From a virus (Duplodnaviria; Heunggongvirae; Uroviricota; Caudoviricetes): a DNA stretch of 43,601 bases. The stretch covers positions 1-43,601 of the IMG/VR virus record IMGVR_UViG_3300045988_013455. One strand, 5' to 3'. Shown one piece after another: positions 1-43,601 of this stretch. Made by a program: the position numbers and the translations under genes. Within the stretch, counting starts at the first letter, position 1. Each line of letters opens with the position of its first letter. Below the pieces are notes generated by a model, which was not told the origin of the DNA, made no database searches, and worked only from the letters and a program-made list of their open reading frames with translations.

Positions 1-55
1 AGTCAGTAAGGTATTTGGTTTTATCCTTAAGCCAATTGCTAAGCTGTTTGGGCTG
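1..55. repeat. Terminal direct repeat, identical to 43547..43601 (circular-assembly overlap / genome junction)
   Basis: Exact 55-nt identity between the window start and end; the reading frame is continuous across the junction. Confidence 0.9.
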
Positions 56-2326
56 AACATGTCAGCTAACGCCAACTATACGGCGACTAACAACCAGACA
101 ACATCACCAAATAACAGCCTCACGGACCGCTCAAACAAACCACGCCCTTACGAGCGCTCTTATGACATCTGCGGGACTGTGCAGACAATCCCTAATGACC
201 TTATGCAGACGTATAAGGCATTCAACTACACTGGTGCTTTGCTGGAGTATTCGTATTATGACGCGGGGCGCGGGCATCTGCATATTGAGGCTGACGGCGT
301 CACGGAAGGTGACACCCCGATAAGCGACATCACAGGTTCCTCTGTTGCCGTGTATGCACCATATACGTCTCCAAACAACACCACTTCACCTCAACTACAA
401 ATCGGCGACGTAATTGACCAGAAACTTTACGTAACATACTCCAACGACGACGTTGACGGTATTGTACTGAAAGCCCCCAACGACATCGGGGCTAACCCAA
501 GCGCAGACGGGAAAGTTCGCTATGACTCGTCAACTAAAATAGGCTACATATATGATAGCTCAGGAGATTCCGCCTTCACCGAGTTTCTTAACGTCGGGGA
601 CATCGCGGTCTTAACTGAATTTTGGGTTAAGGACGTTGCCGTTTTAGATGGGGAGTTTGAAGTGCTTTACGTTGATGATTTTGAGGTAAGAATAGCTACA
701 GGTGGTACTAACCAATGGCCTAACCTCGGAAGCACCACCTACAACCTGACAGAGCAATCAATCACGTTTATTGGGCCTAAAGACACTTATGAACCATCGC
801 TTTCAGACTGGTACTACATGGTGCGGGGAGAAGTTGACCGTGTGCTTGTTAACGTTGCAGGGCAAAACGGCCTCTACAAATACGACGGCGGATACAACCG
901 CACCAGCGTGACGGTGGAACTCCAGTACCAGATGATTGACTCTCAACGCAACCCTTTGAGCAACATTTACACGGTACGGGCCACAATTACTGGTAATAGT
1001 ACGGATTACGTCGGTACGTCTATCTACGGGCAGTTGCCTACCGCGTCTCGTTTCCGCGCCCGCATGCGCCGTATAACGAATTTCGATAAAGACTACGACG
1101 GCACAGTAAGCGACGAGGTAACCTTCATCAACCTGTACGGGCAATCACTCGACACCACCCCGCACTACGGTAACCGAACTACTGTACATTGTGCCCGTAA
1201 ACAGACGCCGCGGGCCGCAAGTATAGACAACCCGGAACTGCGCATGATTGCGACCGAGATGTGCTATAAATATTTAGGCAACGGCGTATTTGATACAGTA
1301 ATGACGCCTAATACGCAGGCGGTGCAGTCGCTAATCCGATTGGCTCGCGACCCTGCAGTGGGTAATCTGGTGTTGACAACGGCAAATATGGATAAGTTAC
1401 TCTCCGTGCAGGAAGAAATTGAGGCATATTTTGGCAGTGAATTAGCTGGGCAGTTCTGTTACACGTTCGACGACTACGACACAACCATGCAAGACATCGT
1501 CCAGACCATAGCGGAAGCCGTATTCTGTACTGCGTACCGCAAAGGTGCGGATATTATGCTGCGATTCGACCGTCCGGTTGCGGGGCCTGAAATGGTGTTC
1601 ACCCACCGCAGTAAGACGACCGGTACCGAGAAATGGACGCGCACGTTCAACGATTCGACAACCTACGATAGTCTGTCGTTCTCATACATCGACCCGGATA
1701 CTAACGTACAGGAAACGATTTATATCCCGGAAGAACTGGGTGCAAATACGGAGGAATACGAATCAAAGGGCGTGCGTAACTATCAGCAAGCGTACTGGCT
1801 GGCGTGGCGCCGCTATCAGCGCAACGCGTTAAGTAAAGTTGTCGTAGAGTTCGAAGCTACGGAAGAAGGGGTGCTCGCTACCCCCGGCGGCGTAATCAGC
1901 GTGGTTAAAGGCTCTCGCATCGCGCCTCAGGATGGCTATGTTGTTGCCGTTAACGGGCTTACATTAACCCTGTCGCAGCCTGTTACGTTTACCCCAGGCG
2001 ACGACCACTCCATCATCCTTAAGAAGCGCGACGGCTCTGTGCAGAGTATCTCTGTCATCAAAGGAAGCCACGACCGTGAGGTGATTATGCTATCTGCACC
2101 GGAGGAGGCAATCTACACGGGGAATAGCGCACTAAAAACTGAGTTTTCATTCGGCAACGAAGCAAGGCATAATGCTCAGAAGATAGTTGTTTCTTCAATC
2201 GACCCCGGCGACGACCGCACGGTCAAGATTACCGGCTACAACTATGACGACGGATTCTATAAATACGACGGCGTCGCGCTATACGGCAGCGGTTTCTCCG
2301 ACGGATTCAGCAATGGTTTTAATTAA
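1..2326 (+). CDS. Tail tip / central fibre protein, lambda gpJ-like (3' part; the ORF starts at about 43380-43386 and continues in frame across the junction, about 828 aa in total)
   Basis: Frame is open from position 2 upstream of the first ATG at 59. Central region (CYKYLGNG, FCYTFDD, IMLRFDRP, YDSLSFSYIDPD) aligns by eye with conserved blocks of lambda J. Confidence 0.7.
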   Translation, partial: VSKVFGFILKPIAKLFGLNMSANANYTATNNQTTSPNNSLTDRSNKPRPYERSYDICGTVQTIPNDLMQTYKAFNYTGALLEYSYYDAGRGHLHIEADGVTEGDTPISDITGSSVAVYAPYTSPNNTTSPQLQIGDVIDQKLYVTYSNDDVDGIVLKAPNDIGANPSADGKVRYDSSTKIGYIYDSSGDSAFTEFLNVGDIAVLTEFWVKDVAVLDGEFEVLYVDDFEVRIATGGTNQWPNLGSTTYNLTEQSITFIGPKDTYEPSLSDWYYMVRGEVDRVLVNVAGQNGLYKYDGGYNRTSVTVELQYQMIDSQRNPLSNIYTVRATITGNSTDYVGTSIYGQLPTASRFRARMRRITNFDKDYDGTVSDEVTFINLYGQSLDTTPHYGNRTTVHCARKQTPRAASIDNPELRMIATEMCYKYLGNGVFDTVMTPNTQAVQSLIRLARDPAVGNLVLTTANMDKLLSVQEEIEAYFGSELAGQFCYTFDDYDTTMQDIVQTIAEAVFCTAYRKGADIMLRFDRPVAGPEMVFTHRSKTTGTEKWTRTFNDSTTYDSLSFSYIDPDTNVQETIYIPEELGANTEEYESKGVRNYQQAYWLAWRRYQRNALSKVVVEFEATEEGVLATPGGVISVVKGSRIAPQDGYVVAVNGLTLTLSQPVTFTPGDDHSIILKKRDGSVQSISVIKGSHDREVIMLSAPEEAIYTGNSALKTEFSFGNEARHNAQKIVVSSIDPGDDRTVKITGYNYDDGFYKYDGVALYGSGFSDGFSNGFN

Positions 2327-2338
2327 AGAGGACTCTAT

Positions 2339-4219
2339 ATGTCAAGCGGATGCGGTGACGTTTTAAGCCTGGCGGATTTACAGACCGCCAAGAAACACCA
2401 GATTTTTGAAGCCGAGGTTATCACGGGTAAATCCGGTGGTGTTGCTGGTGGAGCGGATATTGATTACGCAACAAATCAGGTTACTGGGCAGACACAGAAG
2501 ACGCTCCCCGCCGTGTTGCGTGATGCTGGTTTTCGGCCTGCATCTTTTGATTTTACTACGGGCGGCACATTGGGAGTTAATGACCGGGATTTGTCGGTCC
2601 TGTGGCCAACTGCTGGCGGGGGCGACGGTAATTATTATGCCTGGAAAGGTGTTTTACCTAAAACCATACCGTCGTCGTCTACCCCATTATCGACTGGAGG
2701 AATCTCCGACTCTGCGTGGAAACCTGTTACTGATAACACATTGAGAGAAGACCTTGCGTCCGCATCCGGCGCCACCATTGTTGGATTTCAGCAGGCTCCC
2801 TTCATAAACCGCACTGTCGGAGATTTTTTAACCGATTTTCCCACTAATAAATATTTTGGGGCAAAATGCGATGGTATTACAGACGATACTGCCGCGAACC
2901 AAACGGCATTAGATTGGTCCTCAAGCGAAAAAAGAGATGTTTTTTTTGTGGGCAATAGTTGTGTATCCAGTCGGCTGGTACACAAATCTGGTACAAAAGT
3001 TCGGCATCTTGGCACAATAGTGCCAAAAAATTTTACAGACCAGATGGTTATTGAAGTTAAAGATGATGCCTGGCGCACGCCATACAACGACGGTATTACG
3101 GCTATAGAAACTGGTAATAGAATTATTATAGACGGACTGCATATAGAACCCTCCGCCGCTGTGTCGGCACAAGGAATATATGGGACAGACGGAGTTGGTG
3201 TTGTTATAAATAACGCACGAATCTTTAACATGTCCAATGGCGGCGTAGAAATAGAAAAAGGTTATGAGTGGAAATTCAATAATTTATCAGTCGTAGCCCC
3301 AGAGGATCAACTTTCAACGGCTGCCGTTTCTGGAGTTAAGCACAGAACTTTTGACAGTATGTACTTAAATACTACTGTCGTTGGCTACCAAACAGGCATG
3401 GAAGTAACTAATGACGCTAATGATATCGTTAACACGCACGTATGGGGGCTTACTGGTACTAGAACCACACGGACTATGGCCTTTGGGTTAAAACTGTCAG
3501 GGAGTTCTAATAATATTTATGGTTTTTATGCAGATTCTCCGCATAAAATAGACGCATTACAACCCGCATCTGCCACTAACGGCGGCGTTGGCTATTTAAT
3601 TACAGGGTTTAATAATAATCTTACCGGCCCAAGAATTCTGTTTCATCCTGACGATGGCACGCTATACGGAAAGGCGTTTCTTATTTCTGGAACAGAAAAT
3701 AGCATAATTCAGCCGATTACTACTTCTTTCAGTGGTTTTGAAGTAGGTGGTGATTTTGTGTTTAGCGGTTCTGCGACGCCAACTAACAATATCGTATCCG
3801 GCGGTAATATGCAGGGGGTATACACCGCACCCCAAAACGCCGGTTTCGTACCGACCTTAAATATCCCATGCACATACACATCGCAGATATATCGTCATGA
3901 GTTAACTCTGAGGAATGTAGAAGGACGAATGACCTTAGTAGCTAATATAACTAGCAATGTTGGCTCTACCGCTCTGGCCGTACAAATGCCGTCATATCTA
4001 TCCGGGTTTAAGGGTACGGGGTTTGGGGCTTCAGTTATCGGGATGATTCAGCCATCAGTGAGGAGCGATACCAACCTGCTAGCTGTAGAACCGTATATTA
4101 ATGATGGTAAGGTTTATTTCAGATTAATATTCCGTTCTGGCCCGTCACGAGACGTGTTATTTAATGATGTTATTACCGGTTTAATATCTATTGATATAAG
4201 TTTTAGTGCCCAGTTATAA
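2339..4219 (+). CDS. Tailspike / tail fibre with right-handed beta-helix (pectate-lyase-like) domain; possible polysaccharide depolymerase
   Basis: 626-aa ORF with motif FGAKCDGITDDTAANQTALDW typical of pectate-lyase-fold tailspikes; sits after the J-like gene; strong RBS AAAGAGGA. Confidence 0.65.
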   Translation: MSSGCGDVLSLADLQTAKKHQIFEAEVITGKSGGVAGGADIDYATNQVTGQTQKTLPAVLRDAGFRPASFDFTTGGTLGVNDRDLSVLWPTAGGGDGNYYAWKGVLPKTIPSSSTPLSTGGISDSAWKPVTDNTLREDLASASGATIVGFQQAPFINRTVGDFLTDFPTNKYFGAKCDGITDDTAANQTALDWSSSEKRDVFFVGNSCVSSRLVHKSGTKVRHLGTIVPKNFTDQMVIEVKDDAWRTPYNDGITAIETGNRIIIDGLHIEPSAAVSAQGIYGTDGVGVVINNARIFNMSNGGVEIEKGYEWKFNNLSVVAPEDQLSTAAVSGVKHRTFDSMYLNTTVVGYQTGMEVTNDANDIVNTHVWGLTGTRTTRTMAFGLKLSGSSNNIYGFYADSPHKIDALQPASATNGGVGYLITGFNNNLTGPRILFHPDDGTLYGKAFLISGTENSIIQPITTSFSGFEVGGDFVFSGSATPTNNIVSGGNMQGVYTAPQNAGFVPTLNIPCTYTSQIYRHELTLRNVEGRMTLVANITSNVGSTALAVQMPSYLSGFKGTGFGASVIGMIQPSVRSDTNLLAVEPYINDGKVYFRLIFRSGPSRDVLFNDVITGLISIDISFSAQL

Positions 4220-4223
4220 AACT

Positions 4224-4247
4224 AAGGCCCCAAACGGGGCCTTTTCT
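4224..4247. terminator. Bidirectional rho-independent terminator between convergent tailspike and replication operons
   Basis: GC hairpin AGGCCCC-aaac-GGGGCCT followed by TTTT; A-rich on the other side. Confidence 0.7.
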
Positions 4248-4451
4248 CTACTCTTCAGATAACTTCTCCAGTACAAACGCCAGTTGCGCGTTAGCGGCGT
4301 CTCTTTGTTGCCGCAGGCGTAGAACCTCCTCCTCAAGTTCCTTGATACGTTTTATTTCTCGCTTTAACTGCATGGCAAGAAGTTGCTCTCGGGCATTAAG
4401 AGCGTCTTTTATCAATTCGTCGCAAGCGTCGATATCGAACTCATTATTCAT
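4248..4451 (-). CDS. Hypothetical coiled-coil protein (67 aa)
   Basis: Last gene of the leftward operon; start overlaps the helicase stop (ATGA). Confidence 0.4.
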   Translation of the reverse strand: MNNEFDIDACDELIKDALNAREQLLAMQLKREIKRIKELEEEVLRLRQQRDAANAQLAFVLEKLSEE

Positions 4452-5872
4452 TTCTTACCTCGTCTCTTCATGTAATTAAGCAACTCTTCCTGTACAGATT
4501 TCTTCTCGTCAGTGCGCGCGGCAACAACCTCGTCCAGCGTGTCTTTAGCAACGATGTGATACAGGAACACCGGGCGCTCGTGGCCTGCTTGCTTCTGGCG
4601 CACCGGGCCTATACGCTCAACGACCTGCAAATAGTGCTCAAGGTTCCAGCCTTGCGAGATGAACGCCAGATGATGCCCGCCGTCCTGTAAATTCAAACCA
4701 TGACCGGCTGACGCAGGGTGGACGCATAAGATTTCGATTTCACCGCGGTTCCACGCTTCCATCTGCTTATTACCCTTCGCACCTTTAGAAAATGCCTGAG
4801 CCTGCGGGAATCGCTTAAGGATGCGCTCAAGTTCGTGCTTGAACTGATAGGCCACAAGCAACGGCGCACCCTGTAACTCCTCAACGATGGACTCAAGCGC
4901 ATCCAGTTTAGTGTCGTGCACTTTCTCCCAGTCTTTGGTTGCTTCTCCGTCTGGTCCTGATACATATACGGCGCCAGATGCAATCTGTAGACACTTCGAC
5001 GTCTTCGCCGCCGCGTTAGCCGCTTCAACTTCTCCGCTCTCCAGTTCCGCGAATAACTTCTCCTCCATATCGATGTACGCCTGGCGCGCTTTCTTCGGCA
5101 GGTCGATTTCAACAGGGACAATAATCGGCGCTTCACATCCGAACCACTCGGCGGCGTCAATCGTGAGACTAATGTCTTTCATCTTCTGGTGGATTTCATT
5201 ATCCGCACCCGGGCGCGCATGATACTCCCGCGCCATAGCCGACTTACCTTTCTGTACCGAGTTAAACCAGCGGTCGGTGAATGCCGTGTACGAAGAACCG
5301 AGGCGCTCGCCCGCGTCGATAAACCAGTTCTGCCCCCACAAGTCCTTGAGACCGTTTGGCGACGGTGTACCCGTCAGATTAATGAAACGCTTAACTTTAC
5401 CGAATGCCACCTTACTGAGCGCCTTAGCCCGCTTGCTCCCGCCAGAACGGCTGCGGAAGGATTTAAGCTTCGTGCTCTCGTCGGCAACAATAACCGTGAA
5501 AGGCCAGTCGTCTTTGCCGTAGTAGTCAATCAGCCACTCGATAACTTCGTAGTTGGTGCACACCACGTTAGCGTCAGACTCCAGCGCCGCGATGCGGCGC
5601 TTCTCTGAACCAGTAGCATCGACGACACTCAGACAAGGGAAGCTCCACTTAGTTTGTTCTGCAGGCCATGTGCCGGACGCAACACGTAACGGGGCAAGTA
5701 TTAACACGCGGTCGTCATCATTAAGTTGGCCGTTTCGGAACAGTCGGTTTAACACCCACATTGTCGACGAGGTCTTGCCGCCGCCCATACCGCACCAGAT
5801 ATTGCAACGTGGGTGCTGTAGCATAAACGACGTCATTATTTTCTGATATTCCCTGCGCCTAAACTTACTCAT
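4448..5872 (-). CDS. SF2 DNA helicase, SNF2-like
   Basis: Motifs GMGGGKT (Walker A), VIVADES (DExx-type), LTGTPSPNGLKDLWGQ (SNF2 motif III) and a C-terminal helicase domain. Confidence 0.8.
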   Translation of the reverse strand: MSKFRRREYQKIMTSFMLQHPRCNIWCGMGGGKTSSTMWVLNRLFRNGQLNDDDRVLILAPLRVASGTWPAEQTKWSFPCLSVVDATGSEKRRIAALESDANVVCTNYEVIEWLIDYYGKDDWPFTVIVADESTKLKSFRSRSGGSKRAKALSKVAFGKVKRFINLTGTPSPNGLKDLWGQNWFIDAGERLGSSYTAFTDRWFNSVQKGKSAMAREYHARPGADNEIHQKMKDISLTIDAAEWFGCEAPIIVPVEIDLPKKARQAYIDMEEKLFAELESGEVEAANAAAKTSKCLQIASGAVYVSGPDGEATKDWEKVHDTKLDALESIVEELQGAPLLVAYQFKHELERILKRFPQAQAFSKGAKGNKQMEAWNRGEIEILCVHPASAGHGLNLQDGGHHLAFISQGWNLEHYLQVVERIGPVRQKQAGHERPVFLYHIVAKDTLDEVVAARTDEKKSVQEELLNYMKRRGKK

Positions 5873-6366
5873 GCCTTGAACTCCCAGAAGTATATTTCCG
5901 CGGCTCTTTGGTATACGCGCGACGCTTCTTCTATAGTGTCAAAATAGCCAAGGTGGATGTATTTGTTATTGACGCCTATTCTGGCGCGCCACCTGCCAGA
6001 GGGTATTTGGTAAACCCCTATCGCGCCGCTAGTGTTATGTGATGAGCAGTCTCGGTTCTGAATCTGCTGGCTCCTGGTTGCTGGCCTTATATTATTTATG
6101 GCGTTATTAGCCCTGTTACGGTCTTTATGGTCAAGCTCACCATTATGATATTCTCCGTAGACGAAAGCCCATGCCAGATGGTGGGCTTTTATTCTTACAC
6201 CAGATACGGTGATAACTATGTATCCTTTGTCGTTTGGACCCCCGGCTACCTCCCCCGCATTCCTACCTTTTATGCTTACTTTCCGTGTAAATACGCCTGT
6301 TTCGGGGTCATAGTTAAGAAGACGTTTCGCCTCCTCAATATCAGGCCTTCTAGTTAATTTGTTCAT
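5869..6366 (-). CDS. HNH homing endonuclease with C-terminal AP2 DNA-binding domain
   Basis: HHLAWAFVYGEY...ELDHKDRNRANNAINNIRPA (HNH) plus GVYQIPSGRWRARI...LGYFDTIEEASRVYQRAA (AP2-like). Confidence 0.7.
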   Translation of the reverse strand: MNKLTRRPDIEEAKRLLNYDPETGVFTRKVSIKGRNAGEVAGGPNDKGYIVITVSGVRIKAHHLAWAFVYGEYHNGELDHKDRNRANNAINNIRPATRSQQIQNRDCSSHNTSGAIGVYQIPSGRWRARIGVNNKYIHLGYFDTIEEASRVYQRAAEIYFWEFKA

Positions 6367-34875: not shown

Positions 34876-36044
34876 ATATGGCTACAACTCCTTTTAAGGG
34901 CGCGAATACCGCGCAATTCTATGTGGCGGAAGTGACCCCGGGCGTAACCCCAAGTAACCCTGTCTGGTCGCCGTTGCGTAACACGGGAGGCGTTCCTGCC
35001 ATTACCCGCGACACGCTGACCTCCAACGAACTGGATGGCAGTCGTGAAACTACGTCCATCCGCACCGGTAACAAACAGGTTAGCGGGGAGTACGCCATTG
35101 AGCTTAGCTCGAAAAGCCAGGATGACTGGTTAGCCGGGGCTTTAGGCTCTACGTGGCAGTCCGGGGTTTCTCTGCCAGGGTTATCGATTACCGTTGCCCC
35201 CGCAGGCAAGACGTTCACACGCGCTACCGGCAGTTTTATCACTGACGGAGTTGGGGTAGGCGACCTGATTGCGTTTACCGATTTAACAGGCGATAACGCA
35301 AAACCATTTATTGTTACTGCAGTAACGGCTACGGTTGTTACTGGTGCGGGCATCCAACACACCCTGACCACCGAGACAAAAACTAGTAAGGCTAAAACTG
35401 GCGACACGTTGGAAACCGGTAACGCGTGTAAGACGTTCTCTATCCTTACCTGGTACAAAGGCCAGTGCGGCGGTACTGACGCGTACACGTTAACCAAAGG
35501 CGTGGAAGTTTCTGGTTTTACCATCGAACAGGCTGTTAACGCGATGGTAACTGGCAGCTTCCCATTCATCGGTCGCAGTCAGGAGATTCTCACTACGCCG
35601 CCGACCGGTTCCAACTTCTCATCTGTTACTTTTGGTGATGAGCCGTTCTCATCGGTTGACGTTTCTGTGTTCGATGGCTCAACGCCGTTGCGTTGCGACA
35701 GCCTGACCATCACCAACGACAACAGCGCGTCCGCACAGTTCGAACTCGGCAACTCTAACGTTGCGTTTGTGGAACGTAGCCGCGCAGCTAACACCTTCTC
35801 CATCTCCGGCAAGCTGTATGATATGGCGATGATTCAGAAGTTTATCAACGAGCAGCAGGTAGAGATTAACTCTATTCTGGCGGGGGTAAACGGTGCTATG
35901 TCTTTCAGTTTGAAACGTGCGGAGCTTACGGCAGTTACCCCAGAGATTGGCGGACCTGAGTCAATCACTCAGTCCATTGAAGGGCAGTCCACGGGCAATC
36001 AATATCAATCTTCTATTGTAATACAGCGTATTAGCTACGCATAA
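34872..36044 (+). CDS. Major tail (tube) protein
   Basis: 390-aa Thr/Ser/Gly-rich ORF upstream of chaperone and tape measure genes; RBS AAGAGG. Confidence 0.55.
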   Translation: MNMATTPFKGANTAQFYVAEVTPGVTPSNPVWSPLRNTGGVPAITRDTLTSNELDGSRETTSIRTGNKQVSGEYAIELSSKSQDDWLAGALGSTWQSGVSLPGLSITVAPAGKTFTRATGSFITDGVGVGDLIAFTDLTGDNAKPFIVTAVTATVVTGAGIQHTLTTETKTSKAKTGDTLETGNACKTFSILTWYKGQCGGTDAYTLTKGVEVSGFTIEQAVNAMVTGSFPFIGRSQEILTTPPTGSNFSSVTFGDEPFSSVDVSVFDGSTPLRCDSLTITNDNSASAQFELGNSNVAFVERSRAANTFSISGKLYDMAMIQKFINEQQVEINSILAGVNGAMSFSLKRAELTAVTPEIGGPESITQSIEGQSTGNQYQSSIVIQRISYA

Positions 36045-36075
36045 AACTAAGGCCCCTTTCGGGGCCTTTTTCTTA
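36045..36075. terminator. Bidirectional rho-independent terminator
   Basis: AAGGCCCC-tttc-GGGGCCTT followed by TTTCTT; A-run on the other side. Confidence 0.7.
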
Positions 36076-36303
36076 CTCGTCAATGTTGCTCCGGTACTCC
36101 CGTAACTTCTCCAGACTTTCAATTGCTTCCGATAAGTCAGTTCCTGTGTCCTTGTGTCCCCGCAATCCCATGCATAATAGCTTCTTCAATGCGTGCTGTA
36201 GCGCTGGGTCGCGGATGTCGAAAGCGCGTAGCACATCATAAACGTCTACTGTCATGGTGCTGCCGTGAGTGTTTGTCATTGTGCGGTTGTATTTATTTGT
36301 CAC
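36073..36303 (-). CDS. Hypothetical protein (76 aa), antisense cassette C
   Basis: Last gene of the leftward cassette. Confidence 0.45.
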   Translation of the reverse strand: MTNKYNRTMTNTHGSTMTVDVYDVLRAFDIRDPALQHALKKLLCMGLRGHKDTGTDLSEAIESLEKLREYRSNIDE

Positions 36304-42961: not shown

Positions 42962-43323
42962 ACATTAACGACTACACGGGAATACCTTACGACTTTCGCA
43001 AACGTAATTGCTGGCATCACGTGCGCATTGTCCGCGCGGATGCCGGGTTAGAAACCCCTGCGTTCGACGTTACAAGCCCAACGGCAATTAACGAAGCGTT
43101 TGACGAAGGCCACCGTGACACGAAGGGGCTTACAAAAATTGATAAGCCTGAAAACTTCTGCGCGGTGCTTATGGGGTATCGCCGCGGGGGCCGTATCGTG
43201 TGGCACGCAGGAGTTTACTTCGACGGGATGGTTAGCCATTGCGAGCTTGCTTCTCGTCAGGTACGGCTTGACAGGCTGGCGGACCTCAGAGACACGTACA
43301 CGGAGATTGAATTTTGGCGATAA
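42958..43323 (+). CDS. Tail assembly protein K-like, NlpC/P60-type Cys-His peptidase fold
   Basis: NCWHHV (Cys) and HAGVYFDG (His) spaced as in NlpC/P60; position before the I/J gene. Confidence 0.55.
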   Translation: MNINDYTGIPYDFRKRNCWHHVRIVRADAGLETPAFDVTSPTAINEAFDEGHRDTKGLTKIDKPENFCAVLMGYRRGGRIVWHAGVYFDGMVSHCELASRQVRLDRLADLRDTYTEIEFWR

Positions 43324-43385
43324 TCCTGCACTACACGCGAAACGCTGATGGCGCTTTCGACCGTACAAAACACGTCGGGATGCCG

Positions 43386-43601
43386 ATGGAGTTTGTCGTT
43401 AACCGTATCCCGGACGGCGTTCCGGTACGCGTCTATCTTGGCGAGATTGGTGATGATACAGACGTAACGGACGACTTCGATGCGCTTAAAGACGAAGACG
43501 CCGTGTACCATATTATCGAGGGTGCGGGTAGCGGGGCGCTCGGTGTAGTCAGTAAGGTATTTGGTTTTATCCTTAAGCCAATTGCTAAGCTGTTTGGGCT
43601 G
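43386..43601 (+). CDS. 5' part of the gpI/gpJ-like tail-tip gene (continues in frame at position 1; start ATG 43380 or 43386)
   Basis: DAVYHIIEGAGSGALGVVSKVFGFIL resembles the C-terminal segment of lambda gpI; no stop before the window end. Confidence 0.6.
   Translation, partial: MEFVVNRIPDGVPVRVYLGEIGDDTDVTDDFDALKDEDAVYHIIEGAGSGALGVVSKVFGFILKPIAKLFGL
43547..43601. repeat. Terminal direct repeat, identical to 1..55
   Basis: Exact 55-nt identity with the window start. Confidence 0.9.

What the first reader, a model, noticed from the sequence alone, without database searches (positions are those of the whole stretch)
2339..4219. Tailspike with low-GC beta-helix module: likely horizontally exchanged depolymerase
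From about 2800 onward the tailspike gene is visibly more AT-rich than the rest of the genome, while the first 150 codons look like the flanking tail genes. This pattern fits a conserved N-terminal anchor fused to a swapped catalytic/receptor-binding domain, which determines host capsule or O-antigen specificity.
Basis: partly seen in the sequence, partly recalled or inferred. Interest (0 to 1): 0.4.

Follow-up and report, generated by a model that had tools for sequence, protein, structure and literature searches.

The report
Kagunavirus tailspike with swapped AT-rich receptor module
This is an ordinary modular phage tailspike gene: a genus-specific N-terminal anchor joined to an AT-rich, beta-helix sugar-cutting module that is traded between unrelated E. 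coli phages.

Summary
ORF 2339-4219 (+, 626 aa) has GC 0.51 up to about 2790 and 0.42 after it. The maximum-likelihood change point is at 2823. The 3' part is the lowest-GC 1.4-kb stretch of the whole window, with GC3 0.36 against 0.546 +/- 0.06 for 46 other ORFs.

The window is a Kagunavirus (Guernseyvirinae siphovirus) genome. DNA homology with other Kagunaviruses (~90%) stops inside the gene at 2589-2701 and resumes exactly at the stop codon (4217).

Residues ~135-626 have 62-68% identical homologues fused to five other anchors:
- P22-like Head_binding prophages
- a TipJ-siphovirus prophage
- T7-like podoviruses
- Ackermannviridae phage AV101 TSP3, experimentally O153-specific
- phage Lewi

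In every host lineage the module is AT-rich (GC 0.37-0.39).

Two metagenomic Kagunavirus contigs share 2528-4231 at 99.8% identity while their flanks are only 63-90% identical. This is direct evidence of a recent cassette transfer.

The AlphaFold2 model of the module (pLDDT 90) is a right-handed beta-helix plus a C-terminal beta-sandwich. It matches the Det7, CBA120, HK620 and Sf6 tailspikes. The Pfam pectate-lyase hit is sub-threshold.

Verdict: a new member of a known kind, most likely an O-antigen depolymerase. Its exact serogroup is unknown.

The parts
2339..4219 (+). Tailspike gene, 626 aa, directly downstream of the J-like central tail protein gene (59-2326)
   Evidence: ORF list. PHROG tail spike families. 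Same position as annotated tailspikes in Kagunaviruses M01, 590B, XY2 and TPH05A.
2339..2527 (+). Genus-specific N-terminal anchor (aa 1-63). Predicted disordered as a monomer, and presumably attaches the spike to the tail tip.
   Evidence: ~90% nt identity to other Kagunaviruses. 22 mismatches within 2407-2527 against L010/L011. pLDDT below 50 for aa 1-54.
2528..4231 (+). Recently exchanged cassette: only 4 mismatches in 1704 nt against two metagenomic Kagunavirus contigs whose flanks are 63-90% identical
   Evidence: the mismatches are at 2672, 3351, 3931 and 4104.
2534..2755 (+). Tail_spike_N (PF18668) beta-sandwich domain (aa 66-131) plus neck helix (aa 132-139). It has normal GC (~0.53) and is the junction zone where homology to different partners starts or stops (nt 2528, 2589, 2685-2701, ~2735-2760).
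   Evidence: Pfam E=4e-11 for aa 98-132. PDB sequence hits to CBA120 TSP1/TSP3 and others cover aa 58-190 only. Model pLDDT 84-90. The coding DNA is 72% conserved per column across 5 lineages.
2816..3808 (+). Right-handed parallel beta-helix (aa 160-490), the AT-rich receptor-binding and putative glycanase body. D339 and D399 are invariant among 31 homologues.
   Evidence: AF2 model pLDDT 90, pTM 0.86. Foldseek hits to the Det7 tailspike (TM 0.55-0.58, E 6e-12), CBA120 TSP2, HK620 and Sf6. Weak PF12708 hit over aa 172-365. Invariant columns.
3869..4213 (+). C-terminal beta-sandwich domain (aa 511-625), part of the swapped module
   Evidence: Secondary structure and pLDDT. It is co-inherited with the helix in all homologues, whose alignments run to the last residue.
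4224..4243 (.). GC-rich hairpin AAGGCCCC-AAAC-GGGGCCTT between the convergent tailspike and small reverse-strand ORF. It looks like a bidirectional terminator and is the conserved 3' flank of the cassette.
   Evidence: Terminator scan. Homology to other Kagunaviruses resumes at 4217. L010/L011 differ only in the loop, 4232-4235.

Best explanation
The gene encodes the single enzymatic tailspike of a Kagunavirus siphovirus and is a three-part mosaic.

- Residues 1 to ~65 are the genus-specific anchor that fixes the trimer to the tail tip.
- Residues ~66-139 are a Tail_spike_N domain plus neck helix. This element is shared by many lytic-phage tailspikes. Its conserved coding sequence serves as the upstream crossover zone.
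- Residues ~160-626 are a right-handed beta-helix with a C-terminal beta-sandwich. This part binds and most likely cleaves a host surface polysaccharide, most probably an E. coli O-antigen, and so sets host range.

The third part belongs to a family of receptor-binding modules that circulates by recombination among Kagunaviruses, T7-like podoviruses, P22-like and lambdoid prophages, and Ackermannviridae. The family is AT-rich wherever it is found, which is why the gene's 3' three-quarters stand out in this 50.5% GC genome. The downstream crossover lies in the conserved stop-codon/terminator region.

Shown: the GC and GC3 shift, the homology break points, the multiple anchor contexts, the near-identical cassette in divergent backbones, and the predicted fold.

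Inferred: trimer formation, enzymatic activity, O-antigen as the substrate, and motif-guided homologous recombination.
For: Composition.

Genus assignment and synteny.

Break points: the 5' break is at 2589 or 2685-2701 and the 3' resumption is at 4217. At protein level the junction is at aa 133-141 for P22-type partners, and N-module homologues end at aa 149-229.

The module sits on other anchors:
- PF09008 Head_binding in P22-like prophages, next to an O-antigen acyltransferase or gtrABC
- a TipJ-siphovirus prophage next to gtrABC
- T7-like contigs with gp15/gp16, holin and terminase
- AV101 TSP3 and Lewi

AV101 TSP3 gives translucent zones on, and blocks infection of, O153 E. coli (PMC10791037).

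The module is AT-rich in all contexts: GC 0.37-0.39 and GC3 0.27-0.30, against flanks of 0.44-0.50.

Recent transfer: 2528-4231 is 99.8% identical to L010/L011 while the flanks are 63-90% identical.

Fold.

Published precedent: anchor/RBD modularity, horizontal transfer and conserved flanking DNA motifs have been described in Kagunavirus and five other lytic genera (PMC10408124). Kagunaviruses depend on O-antigen or K1 capsule (PMC11990801).
Against: No enzymatic or binding test exists for this protein. The nearest characterised relative (AV101 TSP3) is only 64-65% identical in the module.

The Pfam beta-helix family hit is below the curated threshold. There is no sequence-level match to any solved catalytic domain. 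Foldseek TM-scores are moderate (0.5-0.58) at 10-14% identity.

No donor with more than 70% identity outside Kagunavirus-type contigs was found, so neither the direction nor the source of the original acquisition is known.

I could not compare the window with the published 44-nt motif itself, because the figures are not held.
Confidence: 0.85

Rival explanations
1. The low GC is a by-product of the amino-acid composition of beta-helix proteins (rich in N, I, S, T, G, K) and says nothing about horizontal origin.
For: GC1 of the module is lower (0.477) than in typical genes of the window (~0.56). C-terminal parts of other Kagunavirus tailspikes with unrelated modules also sag to 0.42-0.50.
Against: Most of the drop is at synonymous third positions (GC3 0.36 against 0.546), while GC2 is normal at 0.44. 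Horizontal exchange is shown independently of composition by the homology break points and the 99.8% identical cassette.
Confidence: 0.05
2. The module is a capsule (K-antigen) or other exopolysaccharide depolymerase rather than an O-antigen-specific enzyme.
For: The type Kagunaviruses K1G and K1H carry capsule-specific endosialidase tailspikes in this slot. Fold matches include capsule depolymerases: Klebsiella K2-2 TSP, phiAB6 and the phi92 colanidase. In the AV101 study TSP3 also gave a small zone on an O8 strain, which the authors attributed to another surface polysaccharide.
Against: The only assayed family member acts on O153 hosts and inhibits infection there. Prophage copies sit next to O-antigen-modifying gtrABC or acyltransferase genes, the usual seroconversion partners of O-antigen-specific spikes. 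There is no similarity to endosialidase domains.
Confidence: 0.15
3. The C-terminal module is a non-catalytic adhesin: it binds the glycan without cleaving it.
For: No catalytic residues could be assigned by homology to a solved enzyme. The Pfam catalytic-family hit is sub-threshold.
Against: AV101 TSP3 produces translucent zones on lawns, which indicates degradation. Two acidic residues in the helix (D339, D399) are invariant across homologues down to 21-24% identity. Every top structural match is an enzymatically active tailspike.
Confidence: 0.08

Closest known systems
Agtrevirus AV101 TSP3 (WJJ54145.1), O153-specific tailspike (PMC10791037)
   Same: It has the same receptor-binding module family, alignable from aa ~135 to the last residue, with 64-65% identity over the module (aa 160-626) and 63.4% by tblastn of aa 141-626. 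It also has a Tail_spike_N domain just upstream of the module, and its module is also AT-rich (GC 0.38).
   Different: It has a different N-terminal anchor (Ackermannviridae branched TSP complex) and belongs to a different sub-clade. AV101 TSP3 clusters at 81-97% with T7-like, P22-like and TipJ-prophage copies. The window's module is 62-68% from all of these and groups only with P0001 and P0002. The same serogroup specificity therefore cannot be assumed.
Other Kagunavirus tailspikes (K1G/K1H endosialidase; Bas70-76 O16-specific; 590B, XY2, NTEC3)
   Same: They occupy the same genomic slot after the J-like tail protein. They share the N-terminal anchor (~80-90% nt identity over the first 230-350 nt) and the downstream terminator and small ORF.
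   Different: Their C-terminal modules are entirely unrelated. No DNA homology exists beyond nt 2589-2701, and the proteins have different Pfam content.
Solved beta-helix tailspikes: Det7 gp208 (6f7k), CBA120 TSP1-4 (4oj5, 5w6p, 6nw9, 5w6h), HK620 (2vji), Sf6 (2vbk), P22-type
   Same: The overall architecture matches: N-terminal particle-binding domain, neck, right-handed parallel beta-helix, C-terminal beta domain. Foldseek gives probability 1.0 and E down to 6e-12. The N-terminal domain is also homologous at sequence level to CBA120 TSP1/TSP3.
   Different: The helix shares only 10-14% sequence identity with TM 0.35-0.58. No catalytic residues could be transferred, and no solved structure exists for this module family.

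Membership tests
Modular phage tailspike (N-terminal anchor + exchangeable C-terminal receptor-binding domain) | The N-terminal anchor is conserved within the phage genus while the C-terminus varies | tested here: met
   aa 1-149..229 are shared at 60-83% identity with proteins of 597-826 aa on ~40-45 kb contigs, with different C-terminal Pfam content. DNA homology to Kagunaviruses ends at 2589-2701.
Modular phage tailspike (N-terminal anchor + exchangeable C-terminal receptor-binding domain) | The same C-terminal module is found on unrelated anchors or in unrelated phage lineages | tested here: met
   It occurs with PF09008 in P22-like prophages, PF03906 in T7-like phages, a TipJ-siphovirus prophage, Ackermannviridae AV101 and Lewi.
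Modular phage tailspike (N-terminal anchor + exchangeable C-terminal receptor-binding domain) | Right-handed parallel beta-helix body | tested here: met
   The AF2 model of aa 160-626 has pLDDT 90.1 and pTM 0.86. All top Foldseek PDB hits are beta-helix tailspikes.
Modular phage tailspike (N-terminal anchor + exchangeable C-terminal receptor-binding domain) | Homotrimeric assembly | not tested
   Only monomer predictions were run. Trimer formation is inferred from the family.
Modular phage tailspike (N-terminal anchor + exchangeable C-terminal receptor-binding domain) | Polysaccharide-degrading activity (halo or translucent zone, oligosaccharide release) | not testable with these tools
   Activity is known only for the 64-65% identical AV101 TSP3 (PMC10791037).
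Pfam Pect-lyase_RHGA_epim / Pectate_lyase_3 (PF12708) | Score at or above the Pfam gathering threshold | tested here: not met
   19.2 bits against a cut-off of 27, E = 0.0012, over aa 172-365. The resemblance is at fold level only.
Pfam Tail_spike_N (PF18668, CBA120 TSP1/gp66 N-terminal domain) | Score at or above the Pfam gathering threshold | tested here: met
   43.2 bits against a cut-off of 25, E = 4.3e-11, over aa 98-132. This is supported by PDB sequence hits to 4oj5, 6nw9, 5w6f and 9d84.
O153-specific RBD subtype (AV101 TSP3 clade) | Clusters with the experimentally typed member at the identity level seen within the clade (81-97%) | tested here: not met
   The window's module is 62-68% identical to all clade members and forms a separate group with P0001 and P0002.

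The most novel reading that the evidence does not exclude
The window's module, together with P0001 and P0002, is a distinct and so far Kagunavirus-restricted sub-lineage of the AV101-TSP3-like family. It may recognise an E. coli O-antigen other than O153, for which no phage depolymerase has yet been described. Its intermediate GC3 (0.355 against 0.27-0.30 in all other carriers, and 0.55 in the backbone) would then record partial amelioration after an old acquisition from an AT-rich shared module pool.
Probability: 0.4. Interest if true: 0.3.

Novelty: new member of a known kind. Interest (0 to 1): 0.25.

Why it matters
The tailspike module decides which E. coli serogroup this phage can infect. 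Knowing its boundaries (crossover zones at ~2528-2760 and at the stop codon/terminator) gives a ready-made recipe for retargeting Kagunavirus chassis phages. It also adds one more receptor-binding subtype to the catalogues used to predict host range. The locus is a clean worked example in which three independent signals agree: the composition shift, the homology break points and a near-identical cassette in divergent backbones. It does not change current understanding of tailspike evolution, which already includes this mechanism for this genus (PMC10408124).

Tried and rejected
- The PDB sequence search found matches only for aa 58-190 and nothing for the catalytic module.
- A PHROG scan of the module alone found nothing beyond its first ~100 residues. 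PHROGs v4 therefore does not hold this family.
- Pfam pectate-lyase-type membership is sub-threshold and was not claimed.
- The antisense ORF 2788-3237 (149 aa) and the overlapping +2 ORF 2406-2744 (112 aa) have no family hits and are treated as spurious.
- I tried to infer the serogroup from the prophage hosts. The strain 2017C-4173W12 turned up in one unrelated paper, and the AV101 supplementary tables are not held. Locating and typing the O-antigen clusters of the 13 E. coli genomes with homologues was judged too indirect without reference wzx/wzy sequences, so I abandoned it.
- I did not assign catalytic residues by structural superposition, because Foldseek output gives no residue alignment. 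D339 and D399 are offered only as conserved candidates.
- I considered a diversity-generating or hypermutation explanation for the odd composition. I made no dedicated search of the window for a reverse transcriptase or template repeat, so this is not excluded by a test. It is unnecessary, because the module is 99.8% conserved between contigs.

Full report
**1. The observation**

ORF 2339-4219 (+) is real: ATG start, 626 aa. Its GC content is 0.513 for 2339-2788 and 0.424 for 2789-4219. The window as a whole is 0.505 and the upstream tail gene is 0.507. A single change-point likelihood scan inside the gene places the shift at nt 2823.

Across the whole 43.6-kb window, the lowest-GC 1400-nt stretch starts at 2821 (0.420). 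Only 0.02% of such windows are lower than 2801-4200.

The shift lies mainly at synonymous sites. GC3 of the 3' part is 0.364 (0.355 for aa 160-626), against a mean of 0.546 (sd 0.061, minimum 0.42) for 46 other ORFs. GC2 is normal at 0.44.

**2. What the window is**

Megablast shows a Kagunavirus (Guernseyvirinae), a small siphovirus of E. coli. It is about 88-90% identical to phages M01, CR01, K1G, K1H and about 100 others over the tail and replication genes.

The gene sits directly after the J-like central tail protein (59-2326; phrog_469). This is the slot where Kagunaviruses carry their single tailspike (PMC11990801). Downstream, on the opposite strand, lie a small ORF, an SNF2-type helicase, an HNH endonuclease and DNA polymerase A.

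**3. Mosaic structure**

DNA homology to other Kagunaviruses enters the gene at ~90% identity. It stops at nt 2589 (M01, TPH05A) or at 2685-2701 (590B, XY2). It resumes at 4217, the first base of the stop codon.

At protein level, PHROG tailspike families match only aa 1-138/167.

Among 120 homologues from a 5.8-billion-protein collection, one set shares only aa 1-149..229 (58-83% identity). These sit on ~40-45-kb contigs and carry other C-termini: Beta_helix, Pect-lyase, endosialidase N-terminal or SGNH/GDSL esterase.

A second set shares only the C-terminal part, starting at aa 133-141, 95-100 or 72, at 49-68% identity.

**4. The C-terminal module travels**

The second set puts the module on several different anchors:
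- The P22 Head_binding domain (PF09008), in P22-like prophages of E. coli and Proteus. These are flanked by needle, ejection-protein and Arc genes, followed by an O-antigen acyltransferase or gtrABC.
- A Tail_spike_N protein behind a TipJ host-specificity protein in a siphovirus prophage, again followed by gtrABC.
- A T7 tail-fibre N-terminus (PF03906), on 39-kb T7-like contigs with gp15/gp16, holin and terminase.
- The 156-kb Ackermannviridae phage AV101.
- The 48-kb phage Lewi.

The AV101 copy is TSP3 (WJJ54145.1). As purified protein it makes translucent zones on O153 E. coli and reduces AV101 plating on an O153 host by about 5 logs (PMC10791037).

A pairwise matrix shows that the AV101, T7-like, P22-like, TipJ-prophage and Lewi copies form a tight clade at 81-97% identity despite their unrelated backbones. 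The window's module groups only with P0001 (99%) and P0002 (88%). It is 62-68% from that clade and 50-57% from two further clades.

**5. Direct evidence of a recent swap**

P0001 lies on two metagenomic Kagunavirus contigs (L010, L011). Against these, window 2528-4231 has 4 mismatches in 1704 nt (99.8% identity).

The flanks are much more divergent. The 121 nt before it has 22 mismatches. The J-like gene is 63-83% identical, the helicase is 88% identical, and the small downstream ORF is replaced by a different 170-aa gene.

So a cassette running from within the anchor to 12 nt past the stop codon has moved between divergent Kagunavirus backbones very recently.

This cassette starts about 300 nt upstream of the GC shift. 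It includes the GC-normal Tail_spike_N domain.

The data therefore imply two nested junctions:
- An older junction at aa ~135-160 (nt ~2740-2820), where an AT-rich helix was joined to a Kagunavirus-type Tail_spike_N domain. That domain is 65-67% identical to those of 590B and XY2, against 51-54% to those of the other carriers.
- A younger junction at ~2528, used for intra-genus exchange.

**6. Why it is AT-rich**

In every lineage the module is AT-rich: GC 0.368-0.391 and GC3 0.27-0.30, which is 6-12 points below the flanking DNA. The composition belongs to the module family, not to any present host genome.

The window's copy is the least AT-rich (0.423; GC3 0.355) and sits in the most GC-rich backbone. 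This is compatible with partial amelioration, but I did not test that formally. Other Kagunavirus tailspike modules also sag in GC, though less (0.42-0.50).

**7. Fold**

The full-length AlphaFold2 model (pLDDT 81.5) has these regions:
- a disordered aa 1-54
- a confident beta-sandwich at aa 66-131 (Pfam Tail_spike_N, E = 4e-11)
- a short neck helix at aa 132-139
- a low-confidence linker at aa 145-159
- a long beta-rich body
- a C-terminal beta-sandwich at aa 511-625

The module modelled alone (aa 160-626) reaches pLDDT 90.1 and pTM 0.86. Foldseek against the PDB returns only tailspike or depolymerase beta-helices:
- Det7 gp208: E = 6e-12, TM 0.55-0.58
- CBA120 TSP2: TM 0.50
- also the Klebsiella K2-2 TSP, HK620, Sf6 and the phi92 colanidase, at 10-14% identity

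Sequence searches of the PDB match only aa 58-190. The Pfam pectate-lyase-type hit (PF12708) is below threshold at 19.2 bits against 27. The beta-helix is therefore supported at fold level, but membership of that Pfam family is not.

D339 and D399 are invariant in 31 homologues, including ones only 21-24% identical. They are candidate catalytic residues by inference only.

**8. Crossover zones**

The DNA encoding the Tail_spike_N core (YYxWxGxLPKxVPxxSTPxxTGG...LRxDLAxxxGA) is conserved at 72% mean column identity across Kagunavirus, TipJ prophage, T7-like, Lewi and AV101 copies.

Pas et al. [quoted passage not shown] They also described a terminator-like motif downstream of the RBP gene, and proposed both as recombination hot spots.

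The window's region is in the right place to be the anchor-end motif, but I could not see their logos. On the 3' side the window has a strong hairpin at 4224-4243, inside the segment where homology resumes.

**9. Comparison with the known, and verdict**

This is the textbook architecture and evolutionary behaviour of enzymatic tailspikes, already described for this very genus.

What is specific here:
- The module sub-lineage has no close relative (over 70% identity) outside Kagunavirus-type contigs and no representative in PHROGs.
- Its serogroup target is unknown. O153 is the best lead but is not established.
- The locus gives an unusually clean demonstration of nested recombination junctions.

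I rate it a new member of a known kind, with interest about 0.25.

Noticed in passing
window 5869-6366 (-): An HNH_3 + AP2 homing-endonuclease ORF (165 aa) is 98.6% identical in DNA to Salmonella Jerseyvirus STP03 and 96-97% identical to a few Kagunaviruses. It is present in only 40 phage records, although the Kagunavirus and Jerseyvirus backbones are only 60-80% identical. In 590B, XY2 and the L010/L011 contigs this slot instead holds a ~227-aa gene, annotated as a C-specific methylase in 590B and XY2. It looks like an actively mobile homing endonuclease that crosses genera.
   Followed up: partly
window 4248-4451 (-): A small ORF of 67 aa (phrog_13851) lies convergent with the tailspike. Relatives carry a 45-aa version, and window 4354-4446 has no homology in M01, 590B, XY2 or TPH05A. 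L010/L011 carry an unrelated 170-aa gene here. This is a second variable slot immediately next to the tailspike cassette, and it is also low in GC (~0.44-0.46).
   Followed up: partly
window 1-58 and 43324-43601: The J-like tail protein ORF is 755 aa here (59-2326) but 825-855 aa in relatives, and the preceding minor-tail gene ends at 43323. The window is probably a complete, circularly permuted genome whose ends cut this gene.
   Followed up: no
window 36041-36081 vs L010 4878-4918 / L011 2094-2134: A 41-nt stretch just after the ORF ending at 36044 is 85% identical to the sequence immediately after the tailspike stop codon in the L010/L011 contigs. It may be a reused terminator-like element.
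   Followed up: no
window 1112-2300 vs L010: The C-terminal two-thirds of the J-like central tail protein is only 63-83% identical to the L010 phage, which carries the identical tailspike cassette. The same region is ~90% identical to M01, 590B and XY2, which carry different tailspikes. Central-fibre and tailspike specificities therefore assort independently.
   Followed up: no
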